A DNA stretch of 63,818 nt, counting the filler, from Reclinomonas americana ATCC 50394 (Eukaryota): the NCBI GenBank assembly GCA_048213135.1. It is 13 parts of 13 records of this genome, joined end to end, with 100 filler letters (N's around TTAATTAATTAA, not from the genome) between each part and the next. Parts side by side here need not be neighbours in the genome. Positions count along the whole stretch, not along the records: positions 37,346 to 52,911 come from AFZH01020313.1; 12 more parts are not named here. One strand, given 5' to 3'. This document shows positions 6,045 to 48,277 of this stretch, piece by piece. The translations under genes and the position numbers were made by a program. Numbering within the stretch: position 1 is the first letter of the stretch; each line of letters starts with the position of its first letter. The notes under the pieces are model-generated. The model was not told the DNA's origin, searched no databases, and saw only the letters and a list, made by a program, of their open reading frames with translations.

Positions 6045-6609
6045 CTGCGGCGAAGGGGGAGGGAAGGGGGAAGGGAATGGGGGAGGGGATGGGGTGAAGA
6101 GAAGGGGGATGAGAAGGGGTAGGAGAAGGGGAAGGAGAAGGAGGAAGACCGAAGGGGGAAGAGAAGGGGGAGAGAAGATGAGGGAGAGTATGAGGGAGAG
6201 TATGGAGGAAGAGTTAGGGGGAAGAGAAGGGGGAAGAGAAGGGGGAAGAGATGGGGAAGAGAAGGGGGAAGGTGAAGGGGNNNNNNNNNNNNNNNNNNNN
6301 NNNNNNNNNNNNNNNNNNNNNNNNTTAATTAATTAANNNNNNNNNNNNNNNNNNNNNNNNNNNNNNNNNNNNNNNNNNNNTCTCTCTCTCACTCGTTGTC
6401 ACCACCTCGACAACAACCCAATCAGCGTTTTTTCCTTTCTCTCTTTCCTCACCGTGTAGTTCCTCTCTCTCATGTGCGCGCGTCTCTCTCCATGTGTGTG
6501 TTCCTCTCTTCGATTCGGTCAAAATGTGTGTGATGCCATGAGAAGAAAAAGAAAAAAAGAACAAAAAAGACAAACGCGTTTTGTTTTTTTCAATGCCCGC
6601 TCTCTTCCC

Positions 6610-8498: not shown

Positions 8499-8639
8499 CA
8501 ACGCGACAAGGTCATTTGACGTGACTTGACTGATTCAAANNNNNNNNNNNNNNNNNNNNNNNNNNNNNNNNNNNNNNNNNNNNTTAATTAATTAANNNNN
8601 NNNNNNNNNNNNNNNNNNNNNNNNNNNNNNNNNNNNNNN

Positions 8640-12025
<3,386 letters not shown>

Positions 12026-22097: not shown

Positions 22098-22199
22098 CTN
22101 NNNNNNNNNNNNNNNNNNNNNNNNNNNNNNNNNNNNNNNNNNNTTAATTAATTAANNNNNNNNNNNNNNNNNNNNNNNNNNNNNNNNNNNNNNNNNNNN

Positions 22200-29523: not shown

Positions 29524-32500
29524 ACGTCTACTTCTTGTGGTCATGCAATCTGCTCTTGTTTGACAATCTCCTTCCGAGTACTCTGCTGCGTTACTTCCTC
29601 TCAAGCACTCTCTTTCTCTCAATCACTCTTCTCCTCGAGCCCTGTTGCCCTGCAGCATTCTTCTCGTGGTTGACAAGACTCACTTATGCATCACACCGTC
29701 CTCAATCAAACCGTCCTCAGTCACTCTCTCCACTCCAGCACTCTCTCCTCCTCGAGCCCTGTTGCCATGCTCCAGTCTGCTCTTGACGGGCAAGACTCAC
29801 TCTTTCCGAGCACTCTCGCCACTTCCTTGTAGCCCTCCTTGCTGCACTCCTGCTCTCGCCTCCTCGAGCGCTCTGCATCACACCGTCCTCTCACTGCACG
29901 CATTCACAAACTCTCGCTGATTGAGCCATTCCTTTCCCTTGTCCTCCTTGCCTTCACTCACTCACCCTCCCCGACGTGCAGGTGGCCGCCCACGTCATTG
30001 ACGACGTGTTCCGCGGCTTCAACGGCACGATTTTCGCGTACGGCCAGACGGGCACGGGCAAGACGTACACGTTGTCGCAAGTGGCGCCACCGGGTCGACC
30101 CGAACTGCGTGGTATCATCCCGCGCACGGTGGAGTCTATTTTCCAGCGCATCTCGCAGGATGTCGACCACGAGTACACAGTCACCATGCAATTCATTCAG
30201 ATTTACATGGAGAAGGTGCGTGTGTGCATGTTTTTTGTTGTGCTCCACCCCTCCCTCGCCGTCACATCGTGGGCGTCGCAGCTGCAAGACTTGCTGAACC
30301 CGGAAGAGGAGGAGAGCCAGAACATGCAGATTCGTGAGGACCCCGTGGAGGGTGTGTTTGTCAGCGGAGTTCGCACCATTCGCATCAACTCGCCCGACGA
30401 GTGCATTCAGAACTACGAGTTTGGCAATACCAATCGCACCGTGGCGCTGACGAAAATGGTTGGTGATGTCCATCCAAGCGTGCATCCTCCATCGCTCACT
30501 CACTCACCATTGTCGTCCACCCCGCAGAACGCCGAGTCCAGTCGCAGTCACTCGTGTCTCATTCTGATGATTGAGCGGCGGCAGCGCATCACACGCGCCG
30601 ACCTCGATTCAGCCGAGTTCTCAGCCGATGGCTCGGTGGAGCCGTCGCGCAGGTTACGTCTTTTCCCTGCCGTAGATCACCTATTCCCCCACGACTCTCA
30701 TTTTTTTGCGGCGCTTGAAACAGTGTGCTGACCGGCAAACTGACGCTGGTGGATCTGGCCGGCTCGGAGCGCATCAAGAAGACGGGCGCCACTGGCGTGC
30801 GTGTCGCCGAAGCCAAGACGATCAATCTGTCGCTAATGGCACTCGGCAACGTCGTCAACGCCCTCACCGATCCCAAATCCAAGCACGTTCCCTTCCGTGA
30901 CTCGAAACTCACGCGCTTGCTGCAAGACTCGCTGGGCGGTGCGGTGCAGGAGAGGGTGAAAGAGAGGGGCCCAGTTGGTGTTGTGTGGCACTCATTCTGC
31001 ATGTGACAGGCAACGGCAAGACCTCGATCGTAGTCACTGTCGGCCCCGACCCCACCAACGTACACGAGACGTACAGCAGCGTGCTCTTTGGTCAGCGCGC
31101 CATGCGAGTGGAGAACAAGGCTCGCGTCAACGAGACGATCGACTACCGCGCTCTCTCCATCAAGCTGCAGGTGCGTGTGACCGAACAATGGAGAAAGAAG
31201 AGTGGGGAATCTGATCGGCAGCGGCGATGCATTCTCCTTGCATCGCGAACTCAATTTCGTCTTCGCAGGCCGAGGTGGATTCCTTGACGGACCGCAACCG
31301 CGAGCTGGAGATGCAGGTGGCGCAGCTCACCGAAGAAGTACAACTGCTCAGATTGCAGGCTTCGGAGGGCACGTCGACCAAGGCGGAGGAGGTGTGGTTG
31401 ATCCTTCACTGCAATCTTCTCGCTGCCCACATCGTACTCAATTTTTCATGGCGCTGGCAGATCATGGCCAGCATGAAGCGTGACCACGAAATGGAACTCG
31501 AACGTATCAAGGGCATGCTGCAGGGTGACCAAGAAGAGGTCTATTCTTTGAGCCAAATGCTTGGCTGCTTGCGTGTGTGTGTATTTACGCTTCCCGGATA
31601 TGCCACAGAGCATGTTGATGTACGAGACGGAACTGGATGAGCTGGAGAAGCAAATCGAGGCGCTGCAAGTGAAGTTGAAGCAGCAGGAGCGTGACATGCA
31701 AACAGCGCATGAGGAGGTGCGATTTGTGTGCGTTATTGTGATGCATTCGGCACCTGCTCATTCAGTGTTAACTGCACAGGAGATGGAGGTCCTCATTGCG
31801 GAACTCGCCGATCGCAAGAATGAGTATGAGCAGGAGATTTTGGAGCTGCGAGCACAGCTAGAGGTGCGTCATCTGCTTGCTTATCTGCTTCGTTCAAACT
31901 CTGTCTGACTTCTGCGGCGTGCGCAGGAACTGCACATTGAACGCGAGAGACGACGAGGCGAGATCGACCGCCTCGTGCGCCAGGCTGAGCAAGACGAACA
32001 AGAACACCTCACACGCATGCAAGAGCTGATGGACGAGCACGCCGAGTTGCAGGAGAAGTATGACGAAGTGCGAGCGGCGACCTCATCCACGGTGTCACAG
32101 GTGCGAGGGTGTTGTTGATGTCGTGCTGTGTTCTGCGAGCTCACGGTTTTGTGGCATTCAGTTGCGCGGTGGTGCGAGCGGCAGCAAGTCGGTGAGTTTT
32201 CTTCACGCAAACTGTGCATTATTGCTATTTTCTCTCTGCTCACTTGCGCATTCTTGTAACATGGTAGAGACGGAAGGTTTGCCGCAGATTGTGCACCAGC
32301 TGTCTTGGTCGAGATTTTTACACTCTTTTGTTCTGCAGCGTGGAAACAGCGTCCGAGCGCCAGCTTCGGGTCAGGCCTCGGCGGCCAATGTTGCGTTTCT
32401 TGTATTGTGCGAATCACGTGTATTACAAACGTGCTCAACGGTTTGTTTTTGTCGATGCAGTCGTCGGACGATGATGTGCGTTCTCGGCTTTGCACGTGAC

Positions 32501-34983
32501 TTACTTGTGCACGACGGCATCTCACCTCTTGAACAATCTGCAGTCCACCGACAGCGACGACGACGACGACGACGACGACGATGAAGAGGGCGGTGCTGGG
32601 GGCGGCGGCAACATTCATGGTTTGCTTGGATGCCACACGCATTGTTTTGCCGTCCATCTGCTGACTTGATCCTGCGTGCCGCAGATGTGTTATCCGAATA
32701 CGCCGACCGCATCGCAGCATCCCTGAGTGGAAGTGTTGCGGCTGTGTCTGTGTCAAGTATAAGCGGTAGCGATGCTGCAGCGCACTCGGCAGCAGCCGGT
32801 TCCGGAAGTCAAACGGCGGCGGGGGCGGCGGGAAGCGGCGCAGCACCGCAGTTGCGCGAGATGCTGCAAGGGCTGCTGACGGACGCGAAGAAGGTTTGTG
32901 TTTCTGCGCCACCTCTGCGACCGGCAGTGGATTGACGGTCTGATGTGCAGACTGCGTGGGACGAAGTAGCGCCGACGTTGAGCGATGTGCTGCTCGGCTC
33001 GGCGACCACTGTTGGACGGACGCCGTCGTCGTCGTCTTCTGATTCTCCTGTTGCGTCGTCTTTGGTTCCTGGTTCCATCTCCTTCCCCAATCCACTCACT
33101 TGTGCGCACTGCAGGCTCCGAGTCCGGCGTTGAATGATGTGGCGGAGGCGCTGGAGCGCATTTTTGACAAGCTCGGTGTGGTACGCCCGCACAAGGTGTG
33201 GGAGGAGGTCAGTCGCGCTCGAGAACGCTCTCGCCAGGTCATGCTCGGCGAGAAGAAGGAACAGGATGAGGACGAAGATGATGCAGACGATGATGATGGC
33301 GAAAAGAAGGCGGATGAGAGGAAGTCGCCGTCCCCTGCCGCGATTCCGTCGCCCAGTCAGATGCGCATGTCCAGGCCGCCCATATCACCGTCGTCGGCGG
33401 CTGGCGGGCAACCGGCGTCGCCATCGGCGCACTCACCGATTCCGCCCTCACCCGCGCTGGTGCGGCGCAACAGTTTCTCGCGGGCGAATCCGTTCCTTGT
33501 GGTCACCGATGTTGGCGCCGCGGTGGCACTCGAGGTTAGTTCTATTGGCTTTTTTTACCTCGCGAGGAGTCTGCTGACACCACGCACAATGTTGAGCAGG
33601 CGCAAAAGGACTCGAGCGCGGAGAGCGTCATCACCGATGTGCGACACACGCGCATCCGCACGCTGGCCGACGATGCCGCCGACTCGTGCAAGGCCACTGT
33701 GGCCATGGAGGCCACGGATCGCCGACTCGGCGCCGAGGTGATGGATGATTTGCGGGCCATTTGGGAACGAGCACACGGTGGCGTGCCGGAGGCGACACCT
33801 GCCGAAGAATCTGCTGAAGGCGAAGGCGAGCATCAGCATCATCATCATCATCACCACCACCACCACCACCCCCATCACAATGTTGACGATGCCGATGGTT
33901 TGTAGTTGGTGAAAGATTTGCGTTTCTTACAAAGTGCTCACTCGCCTCCGAACTTTAGAGATGCCTCTTGGTGCGCTCTTGGAGCGAGTGCAACATGCGG
34001 AGCCGGAGGTGCGCTGGAAGTGGCTGTCGCCGCTGATTGCACAGCTGTGTCGCGCTCTGCATGCGGCCAACATCACGAGTGACACGCTGGCACGAGCGCT
34101 GCTCGCGGTGCGGACGCAGCGGTGAGCAGGCGGCCGAAGATCATAGCGTCGGTGCTCCATCTGTCGTCTCACTTTGTCGTTCGTCCCAGGGATCTGCGGT
34201 CCAACATGCTGCACGCGTTTAGCACATACGTGATCGATGCAAGCGACTGCCTCGATCGCTTGTCATTCGAGTACGTGGATGCACAAGAAAAGCTCGTGAC
34301 GGCTGTCTCTGGTGCGACATTCCTTCCTCCTCCTCGGCCAAAAGCGCGAACCATTGCCTGAATCGTGATCTTTGCTCGTACAGACATGAAGGACTTCAAG
34401 GCGCGCTACGAAGGCGTCAAGCGCGAGATGCAAGAGTCGCAAGTCACTCTCGAGAGGGCGAGTTGTTCTTCACACGATGCGTTTGTTGTGCGATCCTCAT
34501 GTAGCGTGTGCAGGAACGTGCCGACTACACAGTGCGTGATGCTGCCGCTCGCAAGATCCAGCGTGTCTTCCATCGCGTCAAGGCACACCGCAAGGTCCGC
34601 CGCCAGCGCCTCGACTTGAAGGCGAGTCATGCTTGTTTTTTGTGCACCACCCCTGTGTTTGTGTTGCTGAAGCATCACGGGGGGATTNNNNNNNNNNNNN
34701 NNNNNNNNNNNNNNNNNNNNNNNNNNNNNNNTTAATTAATTAANNNNNNNNNNNNNNNNNNNNNNNNNNNNNNNNNNNNNNNNNNNNCGGCGGTGGCAGC
34801 AGCGGCTCAGCAGCCGCACCAGCCGCACCGCCAGCGGGCGACATTGAGTTTGACGACGACGACTTCACCTCCAATCCCATCATGCTCGAGCTGCGTCGCT
34901 CCGCACACCGCGCGCCACCGACCGCCCACACCACCGGCACACCACCAACGGATTCCGCGCTCTCACCACAGCCACCCAAATAG
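29100..34983 (+). CDS. N-terminal motor kinesin (ARK/kinesin-1-like motor) with coiled coil, poly-His tract and IQ-like motif; multi-exon
   Basis: [13 protein letters not shown] (P-loop), NAESSRSH (switch I), LVDLAGSER (switch II), [19 protein letters not shown]; neck [10 protein letters not shown]...DYRAL recalls ARK kinesins. Confidence 0.9.
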
Positions 34984-35137: not shown

Positions 35138-36748
35138 ATGTCGATCGCCTCACTGCTTCTCTCACTGTCTCTGCTCACTGTGCTCACTCTTCTCCTCCTG
35201 TGGGCCTCTCTGTGGCTCGTGCTGCGCCTGTCACGGCCTGCTGCACACACAGGTCGTCACGTTGCATTCTTCCATCCGTACTGGTGAAAGCGATCTCTCT
35301 CTTCGCGTGTAAGAGAGTGTGTGCTCATTCCTTGCGTGCACAGTGACGCGGGAGGAGGAGGCGAGCGAGTGCTGTGGATCATCATTGCCTCGCTGTGTCG
35401 CCTGGAGCCGTCTCTCAATCTTCACGTGTACACGGTCAGCGCACGATCGCATGCCGACATTCTGCAGCGCGTGGAGGTGAGAGAGAGAGGAGGCAAGGAG
35501 GAATGCATCACTCTCTCACACCTCTCTTGTCTTCGCCCCACAGACCTCGTTTGGCATTCGATTGCCGCCCGACGCGCATCTCTCGTTCATTCGCATCGGC
35601 AGCGATCGCCTCCTGCAGGCGTCGACCTATCCGCGCCTGACTCTAATCGGTCAGAGTCTCGGCTCTGTGGTGGTCGCCTTCCGAGCACTGCGCCTGCTCA
35701 ATCCGCACGTGTTTATCGACACCACCGGCTTTGCGTTTGCCTATCCGCTGGCGGCACTGGTCGCCTGCTGTGAGCGGGTCGCCTGCTACGTGCACTACCC
35801 GACCATCAGCACCGATATGATTGGCCTGGTGCGCGATCGCACCGTCACCTACAACAACCGTGCCGAGGTGGCGCGCAGCTGGTGGCGATCGGCGGCCAAG
35901 CTCGGGTACTATCGGGCGTTTGCATGGCTCTACGGCACGTGCGGTCGCTTTGCGCATCTGGTCATGGCCAACTCGTCGTGGACGGCGCGGCATCTGGAGG
36001 CGCTCTGGTCGCACTCGACCGTGCACTTGGTGTTCCCGCCGTGCAATGTGCACGTGGCGAGCGAGGAGGAGGTCGGGAGGCCGCGGCGACCGGTGATCCT
36101 GTCGGTGGGTCAGTTCCGGCCGGAGAAGAACCACGAGTTGCAGCTGCGTGCGTTTGCCCTGCTGCGCAGGGAGGCGAAGATGGCGGGAGTCACGCTGCAT
36201 TTGTTGGGCGGCTGCCGTCACGCCGAGGACCAGGAGCGAGTCGACCGACTGCGGCAGGTGGCCGTCGAGGAACTCGGGTTGCGCGAGGGCGTCGATTTCC
36301 AGTTCCTGCTCAACGCGCCCAACGTGCAGCTGGAGGAGGAGCTGCGCACGGCGACGGTCGGCTTGCACTGCATGTGGAACGAGCACTTTGGCATTTGTGT
36401 GGTCGAGTACATGGCCGCCGGCTGCCTGACCGTGGCGCATCGCAGCGGTGGACCGCTGTTGGACATTGTGGTGCCGGCGTCGGGCGAGGGAGCTGTGGGT
36501 GCGTTCTTTGTGTGTAGAAGGGGAGAGAGGGTGCGAGAGAGAAGAAGAGACTCACGTGACGTGCAGGATTCCTGGCCGAGACCGTGGAGGAGTACGCCGA
36601 GGCCATGCGGCAGGCGCTGACCATGAAGCCTGCGGATGCCGCCGCAATGCGCCTCCGCGCACGTGCGCAGGCCAAGCGCTTTGAGGATGCGGAGTTTGAG
36701 CGCGTATTCATGGAGCAAACACGGCAAGCGCGTCTGTGGGCCACATGA
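35138..36748 (+). CDS. ALG11: GDP-Man:Man3GlcNAc2-PP-Dol alpha-1,2-mannosyltransferase ALG11
   Basis: N-terminal TM, VAFFHPYC-DAGGGGERVLW, TLIGQSLGS, YVHYPTISTDM, SVGQFRPEKNH, MWNEHFGICVVEYMAAG, HRSGGPLLDIV. Confidence 0.95.
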
Positions 36749-37106: not shown

Positions 37107-37542
37107 CTAGAGAGGAAAGGGGGATTAGAGGGGAAAGGGGGAAGAAAAAGTGGGAAGGGATGAGGGGAAAAGGGAGGGGGAGGAAGGGGGACGGGGGAGG
37201 AAGGGGGACGGGGGAAGAGTGAGAAAGAAAAGGGGAGGGGGGAAGNNNNNNNNNNNNNNNNNNNNNNNNNNNNNNNNNNNNNNNNNNNNTTAATTAATTA
37301 ANNNNNNNNNNNNNNNNNNNNNNNNNNNNNNNNNNNNNNNNNNNNTGAGTGAATGAGTGAGTGAATGAGTGAGTGTGTGAGTGAGTGAGTGAGTGAGTGA
37401 GTGAGTGAGTGAGTGAGTGAGTGAGTGAGTGAGTGAGTGAGTGAGTGAGTGAGTGAGTGAGTGAGTGAGTGAGTGAGTGAGTGATTGTGATTGTGTTTTG
37501 TCCTTCTTCTCTTTGTTTTTTGTTTTTGTTTTGTTTTTTGTG

Positions 37543-39305: not shown

Positions 39306-39715
39306 AGGTTTGGTTGTTGTTTTTGAAGGCCCCCCCGCTGTTGGTGAGTGGGTTCAAGTACACTGCTTCGTTTAGAGATTCGTGCGAGAGAGATTTCTTC
39401 ATTGGGATGACGGGGCGAGGACAAAGTACAAGAAGCGGAAGTGTGTGTGTGTGGTGTCCTTTGTCTTGGAGACAGCCTGTCGGGACAGTGCAGTCATCGC
39501 CGCCACTCACAATGTGCTGACCGTCTGGAGAAACGGCTACAGGTCAAACCATCCAGCAGGGGAAAGAAGGGTAGCCAGCGGAGGTCATGGCACGTGGAGT
39601 TCATCTTGGGGACAGGCACTTGAAGTTCCCTGCGCCCCTCCAGATCCCCCTATGGTACACAACGTCTTTATTCCAGTACACCCTTTCCCCCAAAAAAACA
39701 AAGGCCACAAGTTGA

Positions 39716-40813
39716 TCACAGACACAGGCTACCATCCACACTGCACCGATGCACCACGACCTCGGCCTCCTCGACCAGGAAGCAGCGCATCACAATCTCC
39801 ACCAAGCAGCGCGGATCCTCTTCCGCCACCTCCACCACCTCCTCCTCCTCCTGCATCGCCTGCACAGCGCGCAAAGCCGCTCGCGCACAGTCGAGTTCCT
39901 GCCAAGCGAGACCATGCGTTGTGCTCCAGACTCGAACGGTGCGGTCCTGGCTCCCGCTCACCACGCGCCTCCTGTCGGGCGACACAGCAACCGACCGCAC
40001 CCAGCTCGCGTGCCCCTCGAAGTGACCCACCTCCTCGCCACTCGCCAGTGACCACACACGCACCATCTCGTCCCCACTTCCACTCACGACAAGCTGACCA
40101 TCGAGAGTGACAGTCACGGACCACACCCTCGCCGTGTGCCCCTCCAGTCGCCTCATTTCCTCTCCACTCGCCAACGACCACACCCGCACTGTGCAGTCAG
40201 CACCGCCACTTACAATGTGCTGACTGTCGGGAGAGACGCCAACTGAGAGCACCGCCTCTGTGTGTCCCTCCAGGCGCCGCACCTCCTTGCCACTCGCCAG
40301 CGACCACACTCGCACGGTGCCGTCAGTGCTCCCACTCACTATGTGCTGCCCGTCGGGAGTGACGGCGACAGACGACACCGTAGCAGCGTGCCCTTCCAAC
40401 CGGTGCACTTGTTCTCCGCTCGTCACAGACCACATTCTCACCGTGGTGTCTCCACCCGCACTCACAACGTGCTCACTGTCGGGAGTGAAGGCGACAGACC
40501 ACACGTATGCAGTGTGTCCCTCGAGAAGGCGCAACTCTTCGCCAGTCGCCACCGAGAACACACGCACTTTCCTGTCGGAGCTGCCGGTAGCAATGTGCTG
40601 ACAGTCGGGCGAGAAAGCAACTGAGAGCACTGCGCCAGAGTGCACGAACAGCCGCTGCTCTTCACACGACGCCAGCGACCACACGCGGGCAATCTTATCA
40701 AGGCCGCCGCTCACAAACTGCTGCCCGTCACGAGCGATGGCGACAGACCACACAGGGCTGCTGTGTGCACGCAGGCATGTGCTCAAGGAGGGAATGGTGG
40801 TCGTGGAGGTCAT
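39716..40813 (-). CDS. Intronless 7-repeat WD40 protein with conserved C-terminal tail, array copy 1 (most divergent)
   Basis: Seven (G)H...V.SVA..PD..H.VSG..D..VRVWS repeats plus tail GLAWQELDCARAAL...RCLVEIVMRCFLVEEAEV. Confidence 0.92.
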   Translation of the reverse strand: MTSTTTIPSLSTCLRAHSSPVWSVAIARDGQQFVSGGLDKIARVWSLASCEEQRLFVHSGAVLSVAFSPDCQHIATGSSDRKVRVFSVATGEELRLLEGHTAYVWSVAFTPDSEHVVSAGGDTTVRMWSVTSGEQVHRLEGHAATVSSVAVTPDGQHIVSGSTDGTVRVWSLASGKEVRRLEGHTEAVLSVGVSPDSQHIVSGGADCTVRVWSLASGEEMRRLEGHTARVWSVTVTLDGQLVVSGSGDEMVRVWSLASGEEVGHFEGHASWVRSVAVSPDRRRVVSGSQDRTVRVWSTTHGLAWQELDCARAALRAVQAMQEEEEVVEVAEEDPRCLVEIVMRCFLVEEAEVVVHRCSVDGSLCL

Positions 40814-40957
40814 GGTGTGTGCGTGGGCGGGAGAGTGGACGGTGTGCGTGAGTCCTTCTCTGACGAGGACATTCAATTGTCATTGCGAAGGTCACCAGGC
40901 CGGCACAACTACTTCACTTCAAAGAGAACAACGCACAACGCGAACAAAGAACGGAAG

Positions 40958-42040
40958 TCAGATCCTGTCTGCTGAACACCGATAAACAACGACCTCGGCC
41001 TCCTCGACCACGAAGCAGCGCAAGACGATCTCTACCAGGCAGTGTGGATTGGGTTCCTCCTCCTCCTCTTCCTGCATCTCCTGCACTACACGCATCGCTG
41101 CTCGTGCGACGTCGAGTTCCTGGCGGGAGAGGCCAAGTGGTGTGCTCCACACCCGCACCGTCATGTCCCCACTCCCAGTGATAATGTGGTGACCATGGGG
41201 AGTGACGACGATAGACCGCACCTCAGCGGTGTGTCCCTCCAGCCGACGCACTACTTCGCCAGTCGCCAGTGACCACACTCGCATTGCGCAGTCATCACTG
41301 CCACTTAACACGTGCAGTCCGTCCGGAGAGACGGCAACAGACCACACTTGACCAGTGTGCCCCTCCAACCGCCGCACCTCTTCCCCACTCGACAGCGAAC
41401 ATACTATCAATGAGCCGTCTCGCCCTCCACTGACAATGTGCTGGCCATCGGGCGTGACGGCAACGCATCGCACCGCATCGGTGTGTCCCTCCAACCGACG
41501 CACCTCCTCCCCACTCGCCAGCGCCCACACTCGCACCCTCGTGTCCCAACAGCCACTTACTACATGCTTACCATCGAGAGTGACCACAACTGAGGTCACC
41601 GCTAGATTGTGTCCGTCGAACCGTCGCACCACTTCTCCGCCCGCCAGCAGCGACCACACACAAACTGATTTGTCCGCACTCCCGCTCACGATGTAGCGGC
41701 CATCGGGAGTGATGACGATAGACTTCACTGCATGAGCGTGTCCCTCCAGCCGTCGCACTTCCTCGCCAGTCGCCAACGACCACACTCGCACAGCGCAGTC
41801 ACCACCGCCACTCACAATGTATTCGCCATTGGGAGTGACGGCGACTGTATACACCTGACCACGGTGCGCCTCCAACCGTCGCACCTCTTCGCCAGTCGCC
41901 AGCGACCAAACTCGCACCGTCTTGTCACTGCTGCCACTCACAATGTACTCACCATTGGGAGTGACGGCCACAGACAACACCCACGCTGTGTGGCCATGCA
42001 GGCACTTGCAGGGGAGAGACGAGGGAGATGCGGAGGTCAT
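40958..42040 (-). CDS. Intronless 7-repeat WD40 protein, array copy 2
   Basis: Uninterrupted ORF from MTSASPSSLPCKC; seven WD40 repeats; same tail ending YRCSADRI. Confidence 0.92.
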   Translation of the reverse strand: MTSASPSSLPCKCLHGHTAWVLSVAVTPNGEYIVSGSSDKTVRVWSLATGEEVRRLEAHRGQVYTVAVTPNGEYIVSGGGDCAVRVWSLATGEEVRRLEGHAHAVKSIVITPDGRYIVSGSADKSVCVWSLLAGGEVVRRFDGHNLAVTSVVVTLDGKHVVSGCWDTRVRVWALASGEEVRRLEGHTDAVRCVAVTPDGQHIVSGGRDGSLIVCSLSSGEEVRRLEGHTGQVWSVAVSPDGLHVLSGSDDCAMRVWSLATGEVVRRLEGHTAEVRSIVVTPHGHHIITGSGDMTVRVWSTPLGLSRQELDVARAAMRVVQEMQEEEEEEPNPHCLVEIVLRCFVVEEAEVVVYRCSADRI

Positions 42041-42271
42041 GGCTTGATGGGAGAAGAGAGAGAGAGAGAGAGAGAAGGTGTGTGTGGCCACGCGTGTGTG
42101 TTTAGTGCGTTTTTGTGGATCTTCTTGTTCGTGAGTTGTCCTTTGCCATGAGGACATCGAGCTCTATCGACAGGTCGACCCGCAAGACTTCACGACGACT
42201 TCACTTCAGCAGTATACATGCAAGCACTGGCGGTCGCAGAGAAGCAAGCCACAGAAGCAAAGCAGTCGAGT

Positions 42272-43366
42272 TCAAGTCAAAGCCGGTCTGCTGAACATCG
42301 ATACAATTGCAAAAATGACCTCGGCATCCTCGACCACGAAGCATCGCAGCACGATCTCCACCAAGCAGCGTCTCTCCTCCTCCTCCGCGTCTTCTTCATC
42401 TCGCATCTCCTGCACAGTGCACATGGCCGCTCGCGCACCATCGAGTTCCTGTTGAGCGAGGCCGTAAGGTGTGCTCCACACCCGCACCGTCATGTCCCAG
42501 CTGCCACTGACAATGTGCTGGCCGTCTGAAGAGACAGCGACGGAGAGCACCCTGCCAGTGTGCCCGCCCAACCGTTGCATTTCAACTCCACTCGCCAGTG
42601 ACCACAAGCACACTGTGTCATCATCCCCCCCGCCCACGATAAACCGCCCATCGGGAGTGATGGCAACAGACCACAACGCACATGCATGGTTGTCCAATCG
42701 CCGTACTCTTTCCCCACTTGCCAGTGACCACACGCGAACTGTGTTGTCGGCGCTCCCACTGACGATATGCTGACCATCGTGCGTGACGACGACGCATCGC
42801 ACTGCGCCAGTGTGTCCCTGCAACTGTCGTACCTCCTCTCCACTCGCCAGCGACCACACTCGCACTGTTCTGTCAACACTCCCACTTACAATGAGCTGAC
42901 TGTTGGGAGTGACAGCGACGGAGTTCACATGCCCAGCGTGCCCCTCCAATCGTTGCACCTCAGTGCCACTCGCCAGCGACCACACTCGAATCGTTCTGTC
43001 TACACTACCGCTCACGATGTGCTGACCATCGCGACTGACGGCGACAGAGCGCACCCAGTGAGTGTGTCCCTCCATCCGTCGCACTTCCTGTCCACTCGCC
43101 AGTGACCACACTCTCACAGTTGCGTCCTCGCTCCCGCTCACAACGTGCCGGACATCAGGAGTGACGGCGACACAATGCACCCATCCAGTGTGTCCCTCTA
43201 ACCGTCGTACCTCCTTCCCACTCGACAGCGACCACACACACACAGTCTCATCCGAGCTGCCACTCACGACAGATTGCCCATCGGGAGTGACAGCGACAGC
43301 CCACACACGGATGCTGTGTCCTTGCAGGCACTTGCATGGTACACATGGGGGACATGCGGAGGTCAT
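42272..43366 (-). CDS. Intronless 7-repeat WD40 protein, array copy 3 (frameshifted extreme C-terminus)
   Basis: Seven WD40 repeats; a 7-nt insertion near 42305 changes the last residues to AIVSMFSRPALT. Confidence 0.9.
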   Translation of the reverse strand: MTSACPPCVPCKCLQGHSIRVWAVAVTPDGQSVVSGSSDETVCVWSLSSGKEVRRLEGHTGWVHCVAVTPDVRHVVSGSEDATVRVWSLASGQEVRRMEGHTHWVRSVAVSRDGQHIVSGSVDRTIRVWSLASGTEVQRLEGHAGHVNSVAVTPNSQLIVSGSVDRTVRVWSLASGEEVRQLQGHTGAVRCVVVTHDGQHIVSGSADNTVRVWSLASGERVRRLDNHACALWSVAITPDGRFIVGGGDDDTVCLWSLASGVEMQRLGGHTGRVLSVAVSSDGQHIVSGSWDMTVRVWSTPYGLAQQELDGARAAMCTVQEMRDEEDAEEEERRCLVEIVLRCFVVEDAEVIFAIVSMFSRPALT

Positions 43367-43561
43367 GGCTGCAGGAAGAGAAGAGAGAGAGAACGCGTGC
43401 AGAGTGAGTTGTCCTTTGCCATGAGGACATGGAATACACCGACGGCACCGACAGGTCGACCCGCAAGACTTCACGACGACTTCACTTCAGCAGTATACAT
43501 GCAAGCACTGGCGGTCGCAGTTAAGCAAGCCACAGCAAGAAAAGGAAAGGATGACAGCAAG

Positions 43562-44641
43562 TCAAAGCCGGTCTGCTGAACATCGATACAAAATGACCTC
43601 GGCCTCCTCGACCACGAAGCATCGCAGCACGATCTCCACCAAGCAGCGTCTCTCCTCCTCCTCCGCATCTTCTTCATCTCGCATTTCCTGCGCCGCACGC
43701 ATCGCCCCTCGCGCACAATCGAGTTCCTGCCGAGCAAGGCCGTATGGCGTGCTCCACACCCGCACCGTCATGTCATCGCTGCCACTCACAATGTACTGGC
43801 CATCGGGAGAGACGACGATAGACTGCACCTCAGCGGCGTGTCCCTCCAACCGTCGCACCTTCTCGCCACTCGCCAGTGACCACACTCGCACTTTGCCGTC
43901 GCCACTGCCACTCAACACATATTGACCATCTGCAGTGACGGCAACAGATAACACCTCATCTTCGTGTCCCTCCAACCGCCGCACTTCTTCCCCACTCGCC
44001 AGTGACCATACTCGCACGGTGCGGTCGCCACCACTCACGATGTGCTGACCGTCGGGAGTGACAGCGACAGAGTGCACGAAGCCAACGTGTCCCTCCAGCC
44101 GTCTCAATTCCTCTCCACTCGCCATGGACCACACTCGAATAGTCTTGTCCAAGCCGCCACTCACGATGCGCTGGTCATCGGGAGTGACGGCAACACACCA
44201 CACCAACCACGTGTGTCCCTCGAGTCGATGCACTTGTTCGCCACTCGCCAGGGACCACACTCGCACCGTCCTGTCCGTGCTCCCACTCACCACGTACTGG
44301 CCATCGCGACTGACGGCGACAGAGCGCACCCAGTCAGTGTGGCCCTCCAATCGCCGCACCTCCTCTCCGCTCGACAGTGACCACACACGAATCGACTTGT
44401 CGTAACTCCCACTCACAACATGCTGACCATCGGGGGTGACAACGACAGTAAGCACCTGGGAAGTGTGTCCTTTCAAGTGTCGCACTTCTTCGCCACTCGC
44501 CAGTGACCACACTCGCACGGTCAAATCAGAGCTGCCACTCACGACGTGTTGACCATCGGGAGTGACAGCGACGGCCGACACCCACGAAGTGTGGCCGCGC
44601 AGGCACTTGCAGGGGAGAGAAGAGGGAGACGCGGAGGTCAT
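43562..44641 (-). CDS. Intronless 7-repeat WD40 protein, array copy 4
   Basis: Seven WD40 repeats; tail ending YRCSADRL. Confidence 0.92.
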   Translation of the reverse strand: MTSASPSSLPCKCLRGHTSWVSAVAVTPDGQHVVSGSSDLTVRVWSLASGEEVRHLKGHTSQVLTVVVTPDGQHVVSGSYDKSIRVWSLSSGEEVRRLEGHTDWVRSVAVSRDGQYVVSGSTDRTVRVWSLASGEQVHRLEGHTWLVWCVAVTPDDQRIVSGGLDKTIRVWSMASGEELRRLEGHVGFVHSVAVTPDGQHIVSGGDRTVRVWSLASGEEVRRLEGHEDEVLSVAVTADGQYVLSGSGDGKVRVWSLASGEKVRRLEGHAAEVQSIVVSPDGQYIVSGSDDMTVRVWSTPYGLARQELDCARGAMRAAQEMRDEEDAEEEERRCLVEIVLRCFVVEEAEVILYRCSADRL

Positions 44642-44883
44642 GGCTTGATGGGAGAAGAGAGAGAGAGAGAGAGAGTGAGGGTGTGTGTGGCCACGCGCGC
44701 GTGTGTGTGTGTGTTTTGTGCGTTTTTGTGGATGTGTAAGTTGTCCTTTGTCATGAGGACATCGAGCTCGATCGAATACACCGACGGCACCGACCCTCAA
44801 GACTTCACGACGACTTCATTACAGCAGTACACACACAAACTGTTGCAGTTGCAAAGAAGCAAAGCAATCAAGACGAGCGCAAG

Positions 44884-45975
44884 TCAAAGCCGGTCTGCTG
44901 AACACCGATAGCAAACGACCTCGGCCTCCTCGACCACGAAGCATCGCAGCACGATCTCCACCAGGCAGCGTCTCTCCTCCTCCTCCTCCTCCTCCTCCCC
45001 CTCTTCCTGCAACATCTCCTGCACAGTGCACATGGCCGCTCGAGCACATTCGAGTTCCTGCCGAGCGAGGCCGTACGGCGTGCTCCACACCCGCACCGTC
45101 TTGTCCACTCCCGTACAAATAATGTGCTGACAGTCGGCGGAGACGGCGATCGCACACCTCACCGCATCAGTGCGCCCCTCCAGCCGTCGCACCTCTTTGC
45201 CACTCGCCAGCGACCATACTCGCACGGTCTTGTCCACAGCACCGCTGACAATGTGCAGACCATCTGCAGTGACGGCGACAGATAACACCTCATCTTCGTG
45301 CGCCTCCAACCGATGCTCTTGTTCTCCACTCGCCAGTGACCAAACTCTTACCGTCTTGTCGCCGCCGCCACTCACGACGTGCTGACCGTCGGGAGTGATG
45401 GCAACAGACTGCACCATCTTTGTGTGCCCCTTCAGTTGACGCTCTTCCCGACCAATCGCCAGTGACCATATGCGCACGGTGTCGTCAGCTCCGCCGCTAA
45501 CAATATGCTCGCCATCGGGAGTGACGGCGACAGAGTTCACCGGGCCTTCGTGTCCCTCGAGCTTCCGCACTTCCTCTCCACTCGCCAGCGACCACACTCG
45601 AACAGTCTTGTCCAAACTCCCACTCACCACGTGCCGGACATCGCGAGTGACGACGACAGAGCGCACCCAGTCAGTGTGTCCCTCCAATCGCCGCACCTCT
45701 TCTCCACTCGCCAAGGACCACACTCTCACCGACTTGTCATGACTCCCGCTCACAACATGCTGACCATCGGGAGTAACCGCGACTGAGGTCACCCATTTAG
45801 TGTGACCTTCCATCCGTCGCACTTCTTCTCCACTCGCCATCGACCAAACTCTCACCGTCCTGTCACCGCCACTCACAACGTGTTGACCATCGGCAGTGAC
45901 AGCCACAGACAGCACCCACGAACTGTGGCCACCCACGCACTTGCAGGGGAGAGAAGAGGGAGATGCAGAGGTCAT
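44884..45975 (-). CDS. Intronless 7-repeat WD40 protein, array copy 5
   Basis: Seven WD40 repeats (last one degenerate: GRTDAVRCAIAVSAD); tail ending YRCSADRL. Confidence 0.92.
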   Translation of the reverse strand: MTSASPSSLPCKCVGGHSSWVLSVAVTADGQHVVSGGDRTVRVWSMASGEEVRRMEGHTKWVTSVAVTPDGQHVVSGSHDKSVRVWSLASGEEVRRLEGHTDWVRSVVVTRDVRHVVSGSLDKTVRVWSLASGEEVRKLEGHEGPVNSVAVTPDGEHIVSGGADDTVRIWSLAIGREERQLKGHTKMVQSVAITPDGQHVVSGGGDKTVRVWSLASGEQEHRLEAHEDEVLSVAVTADGLHIVSGAVDKTVRVWSLASGKEVRRLEGRTDAVRCAIAVSADCQHIICTGVDKTVRVWSTPYGLARQELECARAAMCTVQEMLQEEGEEEEEEEERRCLVEIVLRCFVVEEAEVVCYRCSADRL

Positions 45976-46160
45976 GGCTTGATAGGAGAAGAGAGAATGT
46001 GTGTGTTTGTGTCCTTCGCAATGATATATGAGGACATCAATTGTGCACAACGTAACGTGACGGTGGCACCCTCAAAACGACTACACGACGGTTTACTTCA
46101 GCAGTATACATGCAAGCACTGGTAGCTGCAGAGAGGCAAAGCAATCAAGACGAGCGCAAG

Positions 46161-47231
46161 TCAAAGCCGGTCTGCTGCACACCGACAGCAAACGACTTCG
46201 GCCTCCTCGACCATGAAGCATCGCAGCACGATCTCCACCAGGCATCGTCTCTCCTCCTCGTCGTCTTCTTCATCTCGCATCTCCTGCACCACACGCATCG
46301 CCGCTCGCGCACCATCGAGTTCCTGCCGAGCAAGGCCGTATGGCGTGCTCCACACCCGCACCGTCTTGTCCTCACCGCAACTGACAATGTGCTGACCGTC
46401 TGGAGAGACGGCGACAAAGAGCACCCTGCCAGTGTGCCCGCCCAGCCGTTGCATTTCAACTCCATTTGCCAGCGACCACAAGCACACTTTGTCGTCATCC
46501 CCCACGCCCAGGATAAACTGCCCATTGGGAGTGACGGCGACAGACCACAACGCACGTGTATGGTTGTCCAATCGCCGTACGCTTTCCCCACTTGCCAGTG
46601 ACCACACGCGTGCTGTGCTGTCGGCGCTCCCACTGACGATATGCTGGCCATCGGGAGTGACAGCGACAGTGTGCACGACGCCAGTGTGTCCGTCCAGCCG
46701 TCTCAATTCCTCTCCACTCGCCAGCGACCACACTCGCACTGTCCAGTCCACACTCCCACTCACAATAAGTTGACTGTCGGGAGTGACGGCGACAGAGTGC
46801 ACATACGCAGCGTGCCCCTCCAATCGTCGCACCTCAGTGCCACTCGCCAGCGACCACACTCGAATCGTTCTGTCCGTGCTCCCACTCACCACGTACTGGC
46901 CGTCGGGGGTGACGGCGACAGAGCGCACCCAGTCAGTGTGTGCCTCCAATCGTCGCACTTCCTGTCCACTCGCCAGTGACCACACTCTCACAGTTGCATC
47001 CTCGCTCCCACTCACAACGTGCCGGACATCGGGAGTGACGGCGACAGAGCGCACCCATCCAGTGTGTCCCTCCAACCGTTGCACTTCTTCTCCACTCGCC
47101 ATCGACCAAACTCTCACCGTCCTGTCACCGCCACTCACTATGTATTGACCATCGGCAGTGACAGCCACAGACAGCACCCACAACGTGTGGCCGCGCAGGC
47201 ACTTGCAGGAGAGAGAAGGGGGTGCGGTCAT
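46161..47231 (-). CDS. Intronless 7-repeat WD40 protein, array copy 6
   Basis: Seven WD40 repeats; tail ending CRCAADRL. Confidence 0.92.
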   Translation of the reverse strand: MTAPPSLSCKCLRGHTLWVLSVAVTADGQYIVSGGDRTVRVWSMASGEEVQRLEGHTGWVRSVAVTPDVRHVVSGSEDATVRVWSLASGQEVRRLEAHTDWVRSVAVTPDGQYVVSGSTDRTIRVWSLASGTEVRRLEGHAAYVHSVAVTPDSQLIVSGSVDWTVRVWSLASGEELRRLDGHTGVVHTVAVTPDGQHIVSGSADSTARVWSLASGESVRRLDNHTRALWSVAVTPNGQFILGVGDDDKVCLWSLANGVEMQRLGGHTGRVLFVAVSPDGQHIVSCGEDKTVRVWSTPYGLARQELDGARAAMRVVQEMRDEEDDEEERRCLVEIVLRCFMVEEAEVVCCRCAADRL

Positions 47232-47293: not shown

Positions 47294-48277
47294 ATGCAGC
47301 GCCCACCAGCCGTCCAACGCGACACCGACGCCAGCGGAGACGACCGCACACCACGTGGTGCGACAACTTCTTCCTCCTCCCGCCTTCGCCTGATTCTCCG
47401 CAACGTGCTACTTGCCGGCCCCGCGCTGCTCTACCTCCTCTTCTACCGCCTCCCGCGTTTTGTGTTCACCCGAGTGCTCCCGCGCGCATGGGAGTGGCTG
47501 TCGTCGCGAGTGGCATGGGTGATTGAGCGTGTGATCATGCGTCCACTGGCGCGCGTGCTGCAGTTCATTGCGCGTCCGCTCCTGCACCTCGTCGAGTACG
47601 TGGGCTACCTGTGTGGCCGCCTCATGTTGGCGATTCAATGGGTGGTGGAGCGTGTGGAGTCGGTGGGCGAGTGGATCATGCGCGTGGTGGTGCGACCGCT
47701 CATTACTCCGATTGTGTACGCGGTGCGGAGGGTGGTGCGAGAGGCACTGTTGCGGCTGATGCAGGGTGTGGTGTGGATGGTGGAGGAGGTAGTGGTGCCG
47801 TTTGTGCGGCTTGTGCAGAGTGCGGCGCAGTGGGTGGTTAATCGTGCGGTGTCACCACTGGTGGAACTCGTGAAAAAGGTCGCGACGTGGTTGGTGGAGA
47901 GCGTGCTGTTGCCACTGGTGCGGCTCGTTTTGCGCGGTGTGCAGTGGCTGGCGTCGCAGGTTGTCGTTCCACTGCTGCAGCTCGTGCGCAGCACCGCCTC
48001 GTGGCTGCTGGAGAAGCTGTTTTTGCCGTTGCTGCGACTGGTGTTGAATGGAGGGCGGTGGCTGTGGAGCACCATTGTGCGGCCGCTGTGGTCGCAAGTG
48101 ACGGTGGTGGCGGCGTGGATGTGGACGAATGTCGTGGCCCCGGCGGGCGAGTTTGCCAACAACTATGTGGTGCGACCGGCGGGCGCTGTGGCCGGTGAAA
48201 TCGTGCGGCGGTCGGGCGAGCTGGTGCAGCAAGTGGGTGGCCTGGTCGACGCTGTCATTCGCCGGTTGCCGTTTTGA
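47294..48277 (+). CDS. Intronless hydrophobic protein with 19-aa Pro/Trp amphipathic helical repeats, function unknown
   Basis: ORF of 327 aa from ATG 47294; six consecutive P-x10-W-x7 units (PFVRLVQSAAQWVVNRAVS, PLVELVKKVATWLVESVLL, ...). Confidence 0.8.
   Translation: MQRPPAVQRDTDASGDDRTPRGATTSSSSRLRLILRNVLLAGPALLYLLFYRLPRFVFTRVLPRAWEWLSSRVAWVIERVIMRPLARVLQFIARPLLHLVEYVGYLCGRLMLAIQWVVERVESVGEWIMRVVVRPLITPIVYAVRRVVREALLRLMQGVVWMVEEVVVPFVRLVQSAAQWVVNRAVSPLVELVKKVATWLVESVLLPLVRLVLRGVQWLASQVVVPLLQLVRSTASWLLEKLFLPLLRLVLNGGRWLWSTIVRPLWSQVTVVAAWMWTNVVAPAGEFANNYVVRPAGAVAGEIVRRSGELVQQVGGLVDAVIRRLPF

What the first reader, a model, noticed from the sequence alone, without database searches (positions are those of the whole stretch)
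39716..47231. Tandem array of six intronless, surface-variable WD40 propeller genes: candidate diversifying receptor system
Seen: six head-to-tail genes of ~360 aa, each with seven WD40 repeats and no introns, among intron-dense neighbours. The scaffold is near-invariant (EGH...V.SVAVTPDGQHIVSG..D.TVRVWSLASGEEVRRL). Variation concentrates just after GH and around the SG-x-x-D-x turn (copy 2: TAWVLS, RGQVYT, AHAVKS, NLAVTS, TDAVRC, TGQVWS, TAEVRS; SSDK, GGDC, SADK, CWDT, GRDG, SDDC, SGDM). Known: these positions form the top ligand-binding face and are the hypervariable sites of the high-internal-conservation WD40s of fungal HNWD non-self receptors (HET-E/HET-D). Inference: this may be a NACHT-less, stand-alone variable recognition repertoire (immunity or substrate capture) in a protist.
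Basis: partly seen in the sequence, partly recalled or inferred. Interest (0 to 1): 0.85.

Follow-up and report, generated by a model that had tools for sequence, protein, structure and literature searches.

The report
Tandem family of surface-variable WD40 propellers
Six neighbouring intronless genes in an unplaced protist encode near-identical seven-bladed WD40 scaffolds that differ mainly on their ligand-binding face and share a tail seen nowhere else, which suggests a family of adaptors with different targets; an immune role remains only a possibility.

Summary
Six intact head-to-tail minus-strand ORFs (356-365 aa) each carry seven WD40 blades and a roughly 60-aa orphan C-terminal tail. 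I also found a truncated seventh copy and homologous spacers.

Variation among the 42 blades peaks at unit positions 6, 7, 9, 25 and 27 (D-A loop and B-C turn). These include the four codons reported as positively selected in Podospora HNWD receptors. With those four codons as an a priori partition, omega is 1.87 against 0.26 elsewhere (LRT 19.2; 0 of 76 null simulations reach it). One paralogue is a blade-level mosaic of two others.

The HET-E analogy fails on its defining features:
- Blade identity is 52-63%, not 85% or more.
- Blade-to-blade dS is about 0.9-1.2.
- Blades group by position across genes, not by gene.
- Blade number is fixed at seven.
- There is no NOD or effector domain.

In 25 database WD40 proteins (about 44-93% internal blade identity) the same five positions are the most variable, so the pattern is typical of the class.

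Best reading: a lineage-specific birth-and-death family of moderately repetitive propeller adaptors with diversified top faces and a shared tail. An immune or non-self role is possible but unsupported. Expression, alleles and further genomic copies could not be tested.

The parts
39427..39588 (-). Truncated, decayed seventh copy (N-terminus plus part of blade 1, with an in-frame stop) at the distal end of the array
   Evidence: tblastn of gene 4 against the window gives E 3e-6 to 3e-8 and 42% identity over query residues 1-68. The translation shows a stop codon and a deletion.
39716..40813 (-). Gene 1: 365-aa seven-blade WD40 protein with C-terminal tail; the most divergent copy
   Evidence: Intact ORF. 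Seven WD40 stretches. 56-63% protein identity to the other copies.
40958..42040 (-). Gene 2: 361 aa counted from the conserved start codon
   Evidence: The in-frame upstream ATG at 42157 lies in spacer DNA homologous to the other spacers.
42272..43366 (-). Gene 3: 364 aa. A 7-nt insertion at about 42305-42311 shifts the frame of the last codons, so the conserved C-terminal motif is lost
   Evidence: Comparison of the 3' ends. The tail match by tblastn stops at 42311.
43562..44641 (-). Gene 4: 359 aa; used as the query and for the structure model
   Evidence: AlphaFold2 gives a seven-blade propeller with block pLDDT of 87-98 (mostly 95 or more) over residues 11-300; the tail is below 57.
44884..45975 (-). 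Gene 5: 363 aa
46161..47231 (-). Gene 6: 356 aa; a mosaic whose N-terminus and blade 1 resemble gene 5 and whose blades 2-7 resemble gene 3
   Evidence: Sites shared only with gene 5 versus only with gene 3: 37 vs 5 in the N-terminus plus blade 1, and 43 vs 162 in blades 2-7 (Fisher p = 1.7e-16). Sliding-window identities agree.
40814..46160 (-). Five homologous spacers (40814-40957, 42041-42271, 43367-43561, 44642-44883, 45976-46160). The duplicated unit is gene plus spacer, 1.23-1.33 kb
   Evidence: The spacer alignment shows shared blocks, one of about 57 nt identical between two spacers, and a pyrimidine-rich tract just before each ATG.

Best explanation
This is a lineage-specific, tandemly duplicated family of stand-alone cytosolic adaptor proteins. 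Each protein is a very regular seven-blade WD40 propeller followed by a conserved, acidic, Cys-containing tail of about 60 aa that has no detectable relatives.

**Shown**
- The scaffold and the tail are under purifying selection.
- The residues of the D-A loops and B-C turns, which form the top face, differ between blades and between paralogues. They evolve at or above the synonymous rate and are enriched in Trp, Lys and Arg.
- The family grows and decays by unequal crossing-over of a 1.23-1.33 kb gene-plus-spacer unit. It includes a truncated relic and one copy with a frameshifted end.
- Whole blades are exchanged between paralogues.

**Inferred**
- Each paralogue presents a different ligand-binding surface.
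- The shared tail couples all of them to one common partner, assembly or location.
For: **Architecture**
- Six intact ORFs with seven WD40 blades each.
- The AlphaFold2 model is a closed seven-blade propeller, with block pLDDT 87-98 over residues 11-300.
- The DHSW tetrad is complete in 37 of 42 blades.

**Where the proteins differ**
- Entropy is 2.86-3.42 bits at positions 6, 7, 9, 25 and 27, and 1.97 bits or less elsewhere.
- Pairwise identity between paralogues is 0.08-0.34 at top-face positions and 0.61-0.78 for the scaffold, in all 7 blades.

**Selection**
- Scaffold dN/dS is 0.15-0.33 and tail dN/dS is 0.17-0.55.
- With the a priori codons 7, 9, 25 and 27 (28 codons), omega is 1.87 against 0.26 for the rest; the LRT against omega = 1 is 19.2.
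- The estimate is 1.84-1.99 under other codon-frequency models.
- Omega exceeds 1 in 15 of 15 tree-free pairwise fits, with LRT above 3.84 in 8 of 15.
- 0 of 76 null simulations reach the observed values.
- Trp is 6.9-fold over expectation at the variable sites.

**Family dynamics**
- Mosaic gene 6, the relic copy, the frameshifted end of gene 3 and homologous spacers.
Against: - No ligand, partner, expression or localisation data exist.
- The same five positions are the most variable in 25 database WD40 proteins, so surface variability is expected for any consensus-like WD40.
- The youngest pair, genes 3 and 6, gives omega 1.33, which is not significant.
- NG86 ratios at six top-face sites are 0.46-1.31.
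- The site model M2a adds only 3.7% of sites with omega 3.9 (2dlnL 9.37), and only 2 sites have posterior above 0.8.
- Exchange between paralogues violates the single-tree model.
- Constraint on synonymous sites would inflate omega.
- The tail has no confident structure: pLDDT is below 57 in the full-length model, and the five tail-only models range from 46 to 80.
Confidence: 0.5

Rival explanations
1. One reading: the array is a NOD-less non-self or immune recognition repertoire. The variable top faces bind foreign or allelic ligands and the shared tail acts as the signalling output, as in the fungal HNWD (HET-E/D/R) receptors.
For: - The most variable positions include the HNWD codons 7, 9, 25 and 27.
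- Omega exceeds 1 at those codons.
- The genes sit in a tandem cluster with birth-and-death turnover and blade exchange between paralogues.
- The tail is specific to this lineage.
Against: - There is no NACHT/NB-ARC or death/effector domain (only 13 residues precede blade 1).
- Internal identity is 52-63%, not 85% or more.
- Blades cluster by position across genes: the nearest blade is the same blade in another gene for 31 of 42, and lies in the same gene for 1 of 42. HNWD repeats cluster by gene (PMC2873952, passages read).
- Blade number is seven in 6 of 6 genes.
- dS of 0.33-1.3 between copies shows slow, old divergence.
- The variability pattern is typical of the class.
Confidence: 0.12
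2. The top face is simply unconstrained. The proteins act through the tail or another surface, or are only weakly functional. The surface loops drift, and the omega > 1 signal is an artefact of gene conversion, constrained synonymous sites and saturation.
For: - NG86 ratios at top-face sites scatter around 1 (0.46-1.31).
- The least saturated pair is not significant (omega 1.33).
- The same positions vary in other consensus-like WD40s.
- The tree is long, about 7 neutral substitutions per codon.
- Recombination is demonstrated.
Against: - The a priori partition test rejects omega = 1 (LRT 19.2).
- 0 of 76 simulations with omega = 1 give an estimate above 1.47.
- Residue make-up at the variable sites is far from codon-frequency expectation: Trp 6.9-fold and Lys 2.9-fold over; Val, Ile, Phe and Pro 0.1-0.2-fold.
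- Six copies keep intact ORFs, with scaffold omega of about 0.2.
Confidence: 0.2
3. Hypothesis on origin, compatible with any of the functions above: the founder gene was a bacterial-type repetitive WD40 gene acquired by horizontal transfer. It was then given the tail and amplified in tandem, which would explain the absence of introns.
For: - The genes are intronless while neighbours are split by introns.
- The nearest solved structures are a designer propeller, the Thermomonospora PkwA WD40 domain (5yzv, 41% identity) and a Nostoc 'highly repetitive propeller' (2ymu, 40%), ahead of eukaryotic WDR5 and RACK1 at about 30%.
- Named database hits are mostly cyanobacterial, planctomycete and actinobacterial.
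- Hu 2017 (PMC5587647, passages read) finds internal identity above 0.4 in about 20% of prokaryotic WD40s but only about 2% of protist and fungal ones.
Against: - Similarity between consensus-like repeats does not show ancestry, and no phylogeny was attempted.
- GC (0.59-0.63) and GC3 (0.62-0.72) lie within the range of neighbouring genes (GC3 0.58-0.83).
- The N-terminus, tail and spacers have no bacterial counterpart.
- Fungal hits also occur.
Confidence: 0.25

Closest known systems
WD40 domains of the Podospora anserina HNWD/NWD NOD-like receptors (HET-E, HET-D, HET-R)
   Same: - The repeat unit is 42 aa.
- The most variable sites flank the conserved residues 8 and 26, in the D-A loop and B-C turn.
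- Omega exceeds 1 at codons 7, 9, 25 and 27.
- Repeat-level exchange occurs between family members.
   Different: - No HET or NACHT domains.
- Blade identity is 52-63%, against about 85% or more.
- Blades cluster by position, not by gene.
- Blade number is fixed at seven.
- Synonymous divergence is large.
- There is a C-terminal orphan tail.
- The genes are adjacent in one array.
Moderately or highly repetitive WD40 proteins (Hu et al. 2017), such as the Thermomonospora curvata PkwA WD40 domain (PDB 5yzv) and the Nostoc propeller 2ymu
   Same: - Blades are close to the consensus, with near-complete DHSW tetrads.
- Internal identity of 0.40-0.59 falls in the 'moderately repetitive' band.
- These are the best structural matches: TM 0.95-0.98 normalised to the target, about 41% identity.
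- The same positions are most variable.
   Different: - Those proteins are mostly prokaryotic and multi-domain (kinase, STAND or several propellers).
- Here there is a single propeller plus an orphan tail, in six tandem paralogues of a eukaryote.
Stand-alone seven-blade scaffold propellers (WDR5, RACK1/Asc1)
   Same: Single seven-blade propeller of about 300 aa that binds partners through its faces; structural matches with TM 0.86-0.92 normalised to the target.
   Different: - Those are single-copy and conserved one-to-one across eukaryotes, with about 30% identity to these genes and dissimilar blades.
- Here the family is lineage-specific and its top faces have diverged.

Membership tests
WD40 beta-propeller (Pfam PF00400) | Seven tandem WD40 repeats that fold into a closed propeller | tested here: met
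   Seven matched stretches in 6 of 6 proteins. The AlphaFold2 model has 28 strands in seven blades with an N-terminal closing strand, block pLDDT 87-98 over residues 11-300. Foldseek probability is 1.00 to WD40 propellers.
Moderately repetitive WD40 (Hu et al. 2017) | [quoted passage not shown] | tested here: met
   X is 0.40, 0.52, 0.52, 0.57, 0.59 and 0.48 for genes 1-6. The definition was read.
High-internal-conservation repeats of fungal NLRs (HNWD type) | Internal repeat identity above 85% over at least 100 aa | tested here: not met
   Mean identity within a gene is 52-63%, and the highest for any blade pair within a gene is 79%. The criterion was read.
High-internal-conservation repeats of fungal NLRs (HNWD type) | Concerted evolution: repeats cluster by gene of origin | tested here: not met
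   The nearest blade by nucleotide identity is the same blade in another gene for 31 of 42 blades, lies in the same gene for 1 of 42, and is another blade of another gene for 10 of 42. Median blade-to-blade dS is 0.90-1.24. The HNWD behaviour was read.
High-internal-conservation repeats of fungal NLRs (HNWD type) | Variable repeat number between family members and alleles | tested here: not met
   Seven blades in 6 of 6 paralogues. Allelic variation cannot be tested because no other isolate is available.
High-internal-conservation repeats of fungal NLRs (HNWD type) | Positive selection at codons 7, 9, 25 and 27 of the repeat | tested here: met
   Omega is 1.87 against 0.26, LRT 19.2. The result is robust to the codon-frequency model, and 0 of 76 null simulations reach it. 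Caveats: the comparison is between paralogues, not alleles; recombination occurs; the register was matched from the paper's text, not its figure.
NOD-like receptor / STAND | A central NACHT or NB-ARC NTPase domain and an N-terminal effector domain | tested here: not met
   Every Pfam family shown for the six proteins (the best 25 of 44-59 per protein) is a beta-propeller family. Only 13 residues precede blade 1 and spacers are 242 bp or less. The tail has no Pfam or NCBIfam match.
DCAF / DWD-box substrate receptors | A WDxR motif at the end of a blade (motif recalled from memory, not from a call) | tested here: not met
   The residue after the blade Trp (position 33) is Ser in 41 of 42 blades, not Asp or Glu.

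The most novel reading that the evidence does not exclude
The array is a new receptor architecture for non-self or pathogen recognition in a deep-branching protist. It would consist of stand-alone WD40 sensors without a NOD module, whose top faces diversify by tandem duplication, blade exchange and positive selection. The orphan helical, acidic, Cys-containing tail would be a previously unseen output or assembly module shared by all sensors.
Probability: 0.12. Interest if true: 0.8.

Novelty: new variant of a known kind. Interest (0 to 1): 0.42.

Why it matters
Repeat-based recognition surfaces that diversify at the same few codons are known in fungal NOD-like receptors, and the same positions vary in bacterial repetitive WD40 proteins.

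This array shows the same site-specific diversification in a stand-alone propeller family of a eukaryote that has no close sequenced relatives. It arises here by gene duplication and blade exchange between paralogues, not by intragenic concerted evolution.

If the paralogues bind different ligands through the top face and share one output through the tail, the locus would be a compact natural example of specificity swapping on a fixed scaffold. It would also offer a route to the function of an orphan tail.

If not, it is an ordinary lineage-specific expansion of a very common fold.

Tried and rejected
**Searches of the genome and of sequencing data**
- The window's own genome is not held, so further copies elsewhere in the genome could not be sought.
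- Sequencing runs: none was listed and no RNA holder was listed. Reads were therefore never laid on the locus.
- Earlier findings of this scan: nothing by place or by sequence.

**Relatives of the tail: none found**
- The 5.8-billion-protein collection, lengths 197-629 aa only; the 'longer' and 'shorter' ranges were not searched.
- Metagenome, viral and prokaryotic genome contigs.
- Pfam at E up to 10, NCBIfam and PDB sequences.
- ESM Atlas features.
- The 270 fetched WD40 hits: 0 by phmmer at E up to 10, and best BLASTP E of 0.37.

**Whole-protein searches**
These returned only generic WD40 proteins. One search gave 4845 hits. One search gave 490,762 proteins at E of 0.001 or less, and its top 150 are long proteins (972-3631 aa) with several matched stretches. 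A single-propeller relative carrying the tail would not rank among the top 150.

**Identity of the organism**
The ALG11 neighbour was used as a taxonomic marker. Its best hits are only 39-54% identical and are spread over stramenopiles, rhizarians, haptophytes, euglenozoans, animals and plants. The lineage is unplaced.

**Structure and binding of the tail**
There is no verdict.
- The tail-only AlphaFold2 run gave one long helix in the best model, but the five models disagree (mean pLDDT 46-80).
- No heptad register or strong amphipathic signal supports a coiled coil.

**Other**
- Rfam: no match in the window.
- The Atlas search for the divergent neighbour ORF at 47294-48277 gave only weak leads without a family.
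- Literature searches and passages from two genome papers turned up no description of stand-alone WD40 tandem arrays in protists. Supplementary files were not consulted.
- One search was an empty script.

**Considered and rejected**
- Pseudogene array: rejected because all six ORFs are intact and scaffold omega is about 0.2.
- Assembly artefact: rejected because the copies differ by 14-30% at the DNA level and lie in a gap-free stretch.
Full report
**1. What is there**

The window carries six uninterrupted minus-strand ORFs between 39716 and 47231. They encode proteins of 356-365 aa. The second ORF starts at the conserved ATG at 42040; a further in-frame ATG at 42157 lies in spacer DNA.

Pfam finds seven WD40 stretches in 6 of 6 proteins, with E from 2e-85 to 2e-74. 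Tandem Repeats Finder finds a 126-nt period inside each gene at 67-78% matches.

The six proteins align end to end. Protein identity is 56-79% and DNA identity 70-86%. Genes 3 and 6 are the closest pair and gene 1 is the outlier (tree).

Each protein has three parts:
- 13 N-terminal residues that supply the closing strand of the propeller;
- seven 42-residue blades;
- a C-terminal tail of about 60 residues.

The spacers (144-242 bp) are homologous to each other. They share blocks, one of about 57 nt identical between two spacers, and a pyrimidine-rich tract just before each ATG. The duplicated unit is therefore gene plus spacer, 1.23-1.33 kb.

A decayed fragment of a seventh copy lies just beyond gene 1, at 39427-39588. 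It holds the start and part of blade 1, with a stop codon and a deletion. Gene 3 carries a 7-nt insertion near its 3' end that shifts the frame of its last codons.

The runs of N in the window are assembly-gap linkers: 44 N, a 12-nt stop-in-all-frames linker, then 44 N. None lies between 37346 and 52911, so the array sits in continuous sequence.

**2. Surroundings and organism**

Neighbouring ORFs carry eukaryotic domains: MCM, a voltage-gated channel, kinesin, ALG11, Nop25, CoA-transferase III and muskelin/kelch. In five of these genes (MCM, the channel, ALG11, muskelin/kelch and an AAA-ATPase-like gene) one Pfam domain is split over ORFs in different frames, which implies introns. The WD40 genes have none.

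GC and GC3 of the array (0.59-0.63 and 0.62-0.72) lie within the range of the neighbours.

The ALG11 fragment finds nothing closer than 54% identity, with named hits scattered over many eukaryotic groups. The six WD40 proteins themselves do not appear in the protein collection. The organism is a eukaryote without close sequenced relatives in these databases, and its own genome is not held.

**3. Where the variation lies**

I stacked the 42 blades, with the unit starting at L-x-G-H.

- Entropy is 2.86-3.42 bits at positions 6, 7, 9, 25 and 27. It is 1.97 bits or less at the other 37 positions.
- V8 is nearly invariant and D26 is invariant.
- In the AlphaFold2 model the block pLDDT is 87-98 over residues 11-300. 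Positions 5-7 fall in the D-A loop, position 9 at the start of strand A, and positions 25 and 27 in the B-C turn. This is the face that Paoletti et al. 2007 call the interaction platform (PMC1805685, passages read).
- That paper names codons 7, 9, 25 and 27, flanking the conserved 8 and 26, as the positively selected sites of the HNWD repeats. The register matches mine by the spacing of the conserved residues and by the loops named in the text. I could not see the figure.
- Between paralogues, identity at six top-face positions is 0.08-0.34, against 0.61-0.78 for the rest of the blade, in every one of the seven blades.

'Near-invariant scaffold' overstates it, because blades within a gene are 52-63% identical.

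**4. Selection**

*Counting method (Nei-Gojobori).*
- Scaffold: dN/dS 0.15-0.33.
- Tail: dN/dS 0.17-0.55.
- Six top-face positions: dN/dS 0.46-1.31.
- dS between genes: 0.33-1.3.

*My own maximum-likelihood codon models on the six-gene tree.*
- Overall omega is 0.32.
- M2a improves on M1a by 2dlnL = 9.37, adding 3.7% of sites with omega 3.9. Only 2 sites have posterior above 0.8.

*A priori partition.* I took the four HNWD codons as a partition chosen before looking at these data (28 codons).
- Omega is 1.87 against 0.26 for the rest. The LRT against omega = 1 is 19.2.
- Other codon-frequency models give 1.84 and 1.99.
- Tree-free pairwise fits with a separate divergence for each blade give omega above 1 in 15 of 15 pairs, with LRT above 3.84 in 8 of 15. 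The youngest and least saturated pair, genes 3 and 6, gives 1.33 and is not significant.
- In 76 simulations with omega = 1 at these codons and heterogeneous constraint elsewhere, the largest estimate was 1.47 and the largest LRT was 7.55.

*Residue make-up.* Residues at the variable sites are far from codon-frequency expectation: Trp is 6.9-fold over, Lys 2.9-fold over, and Val, Ile, Phe and Pro are depleted.

I conclude that the top face evolves at least as fast as synonymous sites, and probably faster. The caveats are:
- these are old paralogues, not alleles;
- recombination occurs between them;
- any constraint on synonymous sites would raise omega.

**5. How the family evolves**

- The nearest relative of a blade by nucleotide identity is the same blade in another gene for 31 of 42 blades. 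It is a blade of the same gene for 1 of 42, and another blade of another gene for 10 of 42.
- Median dS between blades of one gene is 0.90-1.24.
- The blades are therefore old and are kept alike by purifying selection. The array arose by whole-gene duplication, not by ongoing homogenisation within genes.
- Exchange between genes does occur. Gene 6 shares 37 sites only with gene 5, against 5 only with gene 3, in the N-terminus and blade 1. In blades 2-7 the counts are 43 against 162 (Fisher p = 1.7e-16). The breakpoint lies at a blade boundary.
- With the relic copy and the frameshifted end of gene 3, this is birth-and-death evolution with occasional blade-level conversion.

**6. Comparison with what is known**

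*HNWD / high-internal-conservation family.* These repeats are defined by about 85% or more internal identity, concerted evolution, variable repeat number and attachment to NACHT and effector domains (PMC4986451; PMC2873952).
- Four of these features were tested and not met.
- Only the site-specific selection feature is met.

*Scheme of Hu et al. 2017 (PMC5587647).* The six proteins are 'moderately repetitive', with X of 0.40-0.59. That paper finds this class in about 20% of prokaryotic WD40s but only about 2% of protist and fungal ones.

*Solved structures.* The closest are a designer symmetric propeller (7big), the Thermomonospora PkwA WD40 domain (5yzv) and a Nostoc repetitive propeller (2ymu), at 40-41% identity. 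WDR5 and RACK1 follow at about 30%.

*Control.* Of the 120 database hits listed, 25 gave six or more cleanly extracted blades. Their mean internal blade identity ranges from 0.44 to 0.93. In those 25 the five positions of highest within-protein entropy are again 25, 7, 9, 6 and 27. The variability pattern is a property of consensus-like WD40 proteins in general and does not by itself point to immunity.

**7. The tail**

The tail is conserved, with dN/dS of 0.17-0.55. It is acidic, with net charge -7 in gene 4, and two Cys residues are invariant across the six copies.

It has no relative in any resource I could search.

Its structure is not predicted with confidence. In the full-length model the block pLDDT is below 57. 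A tail-only run gives one long helix in the best model, but the five models disagree. The homodimer test could not be run because the queue was full.

**8. Verdict**

The most likely reading (0.5) is a lineage-specific family of stand-alone propeller adaptors, with diversified top faces and a shared orphan tail.

It rests only on a site pattern that is typical of the class, while the features that define the HET-E analogy are absent.

A neutral-drift reading (0.2) is disfavoured by the partition test and by residue composition, but is not excluded. A bacterial origin of the founder gene (0.25) is compatible with any of these readings and was not tested by phylogeny.

Expression, allelic diversity and the existence of further copies in the genome remain open.

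Noticed in passing
window 4115-4214, 6281-6380, 8540-8639, 11169-11268, 20031-20130, 22100-22199, 34688-34787, 37246-37345, 52912-53011, 57209-57308, 59190-59289, 62633-62732: Twelve 100-nt assembly gaps, each written as 44 N, a 12-nt linker with stops in all frames, and 44 N. Many are flanked by CT, GT or other simple repeats. The window is a scaffold of 13 contigs, so order and orientation beyond each gap rest on scaffolding.
   Followed up: partly
window 47294-48277 (+): A 327-aa ORF starts 62 bp from the start codon of gene 6 and runs in the opposite direction. It is hydrophobic and repetitive, with recurring V/L-rich segments punctuated by Pro. It has no Pfam match and only weak Atlas leads without a family. 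It may share a bidirectional promoter with gene 6.
   Followed up: partly
window 42305-42311 (-): A 7-nt insertion in gene 3 shifts the frame of its last codons. The downstream nucleotides still match the conserved C-terminal motif of the other copies, so the change is recent or a sequencing error.
   Followed up: partly
window 40814-46160, spacers (-): Spacer blocks are better conserved than synonymous sites of the flanking genes; about 57 nt are identical between the spacers after genes 3 and 4. Each start codon is preceded by a CT-rich tract. These could be shared regulatory or RNA-processing signals, or recent conversion tracts.
   Followed up: no
window 8892-10769 (-), 14303-20749 (-), 23366-23812 (-), 29925-30728 (+), 35288-36617 (+), 54732-55993 (-): The neighbours are ordinary eukaryotic genes: MCM, a multi-domain voltage-gated cation channel, a SHIPPO-repeat protein, kinesin, ALG11 and muskelin. 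Their domains are split by short introns. The SHIPPO repeat hints at a flagellated organism.
   Followed up: no
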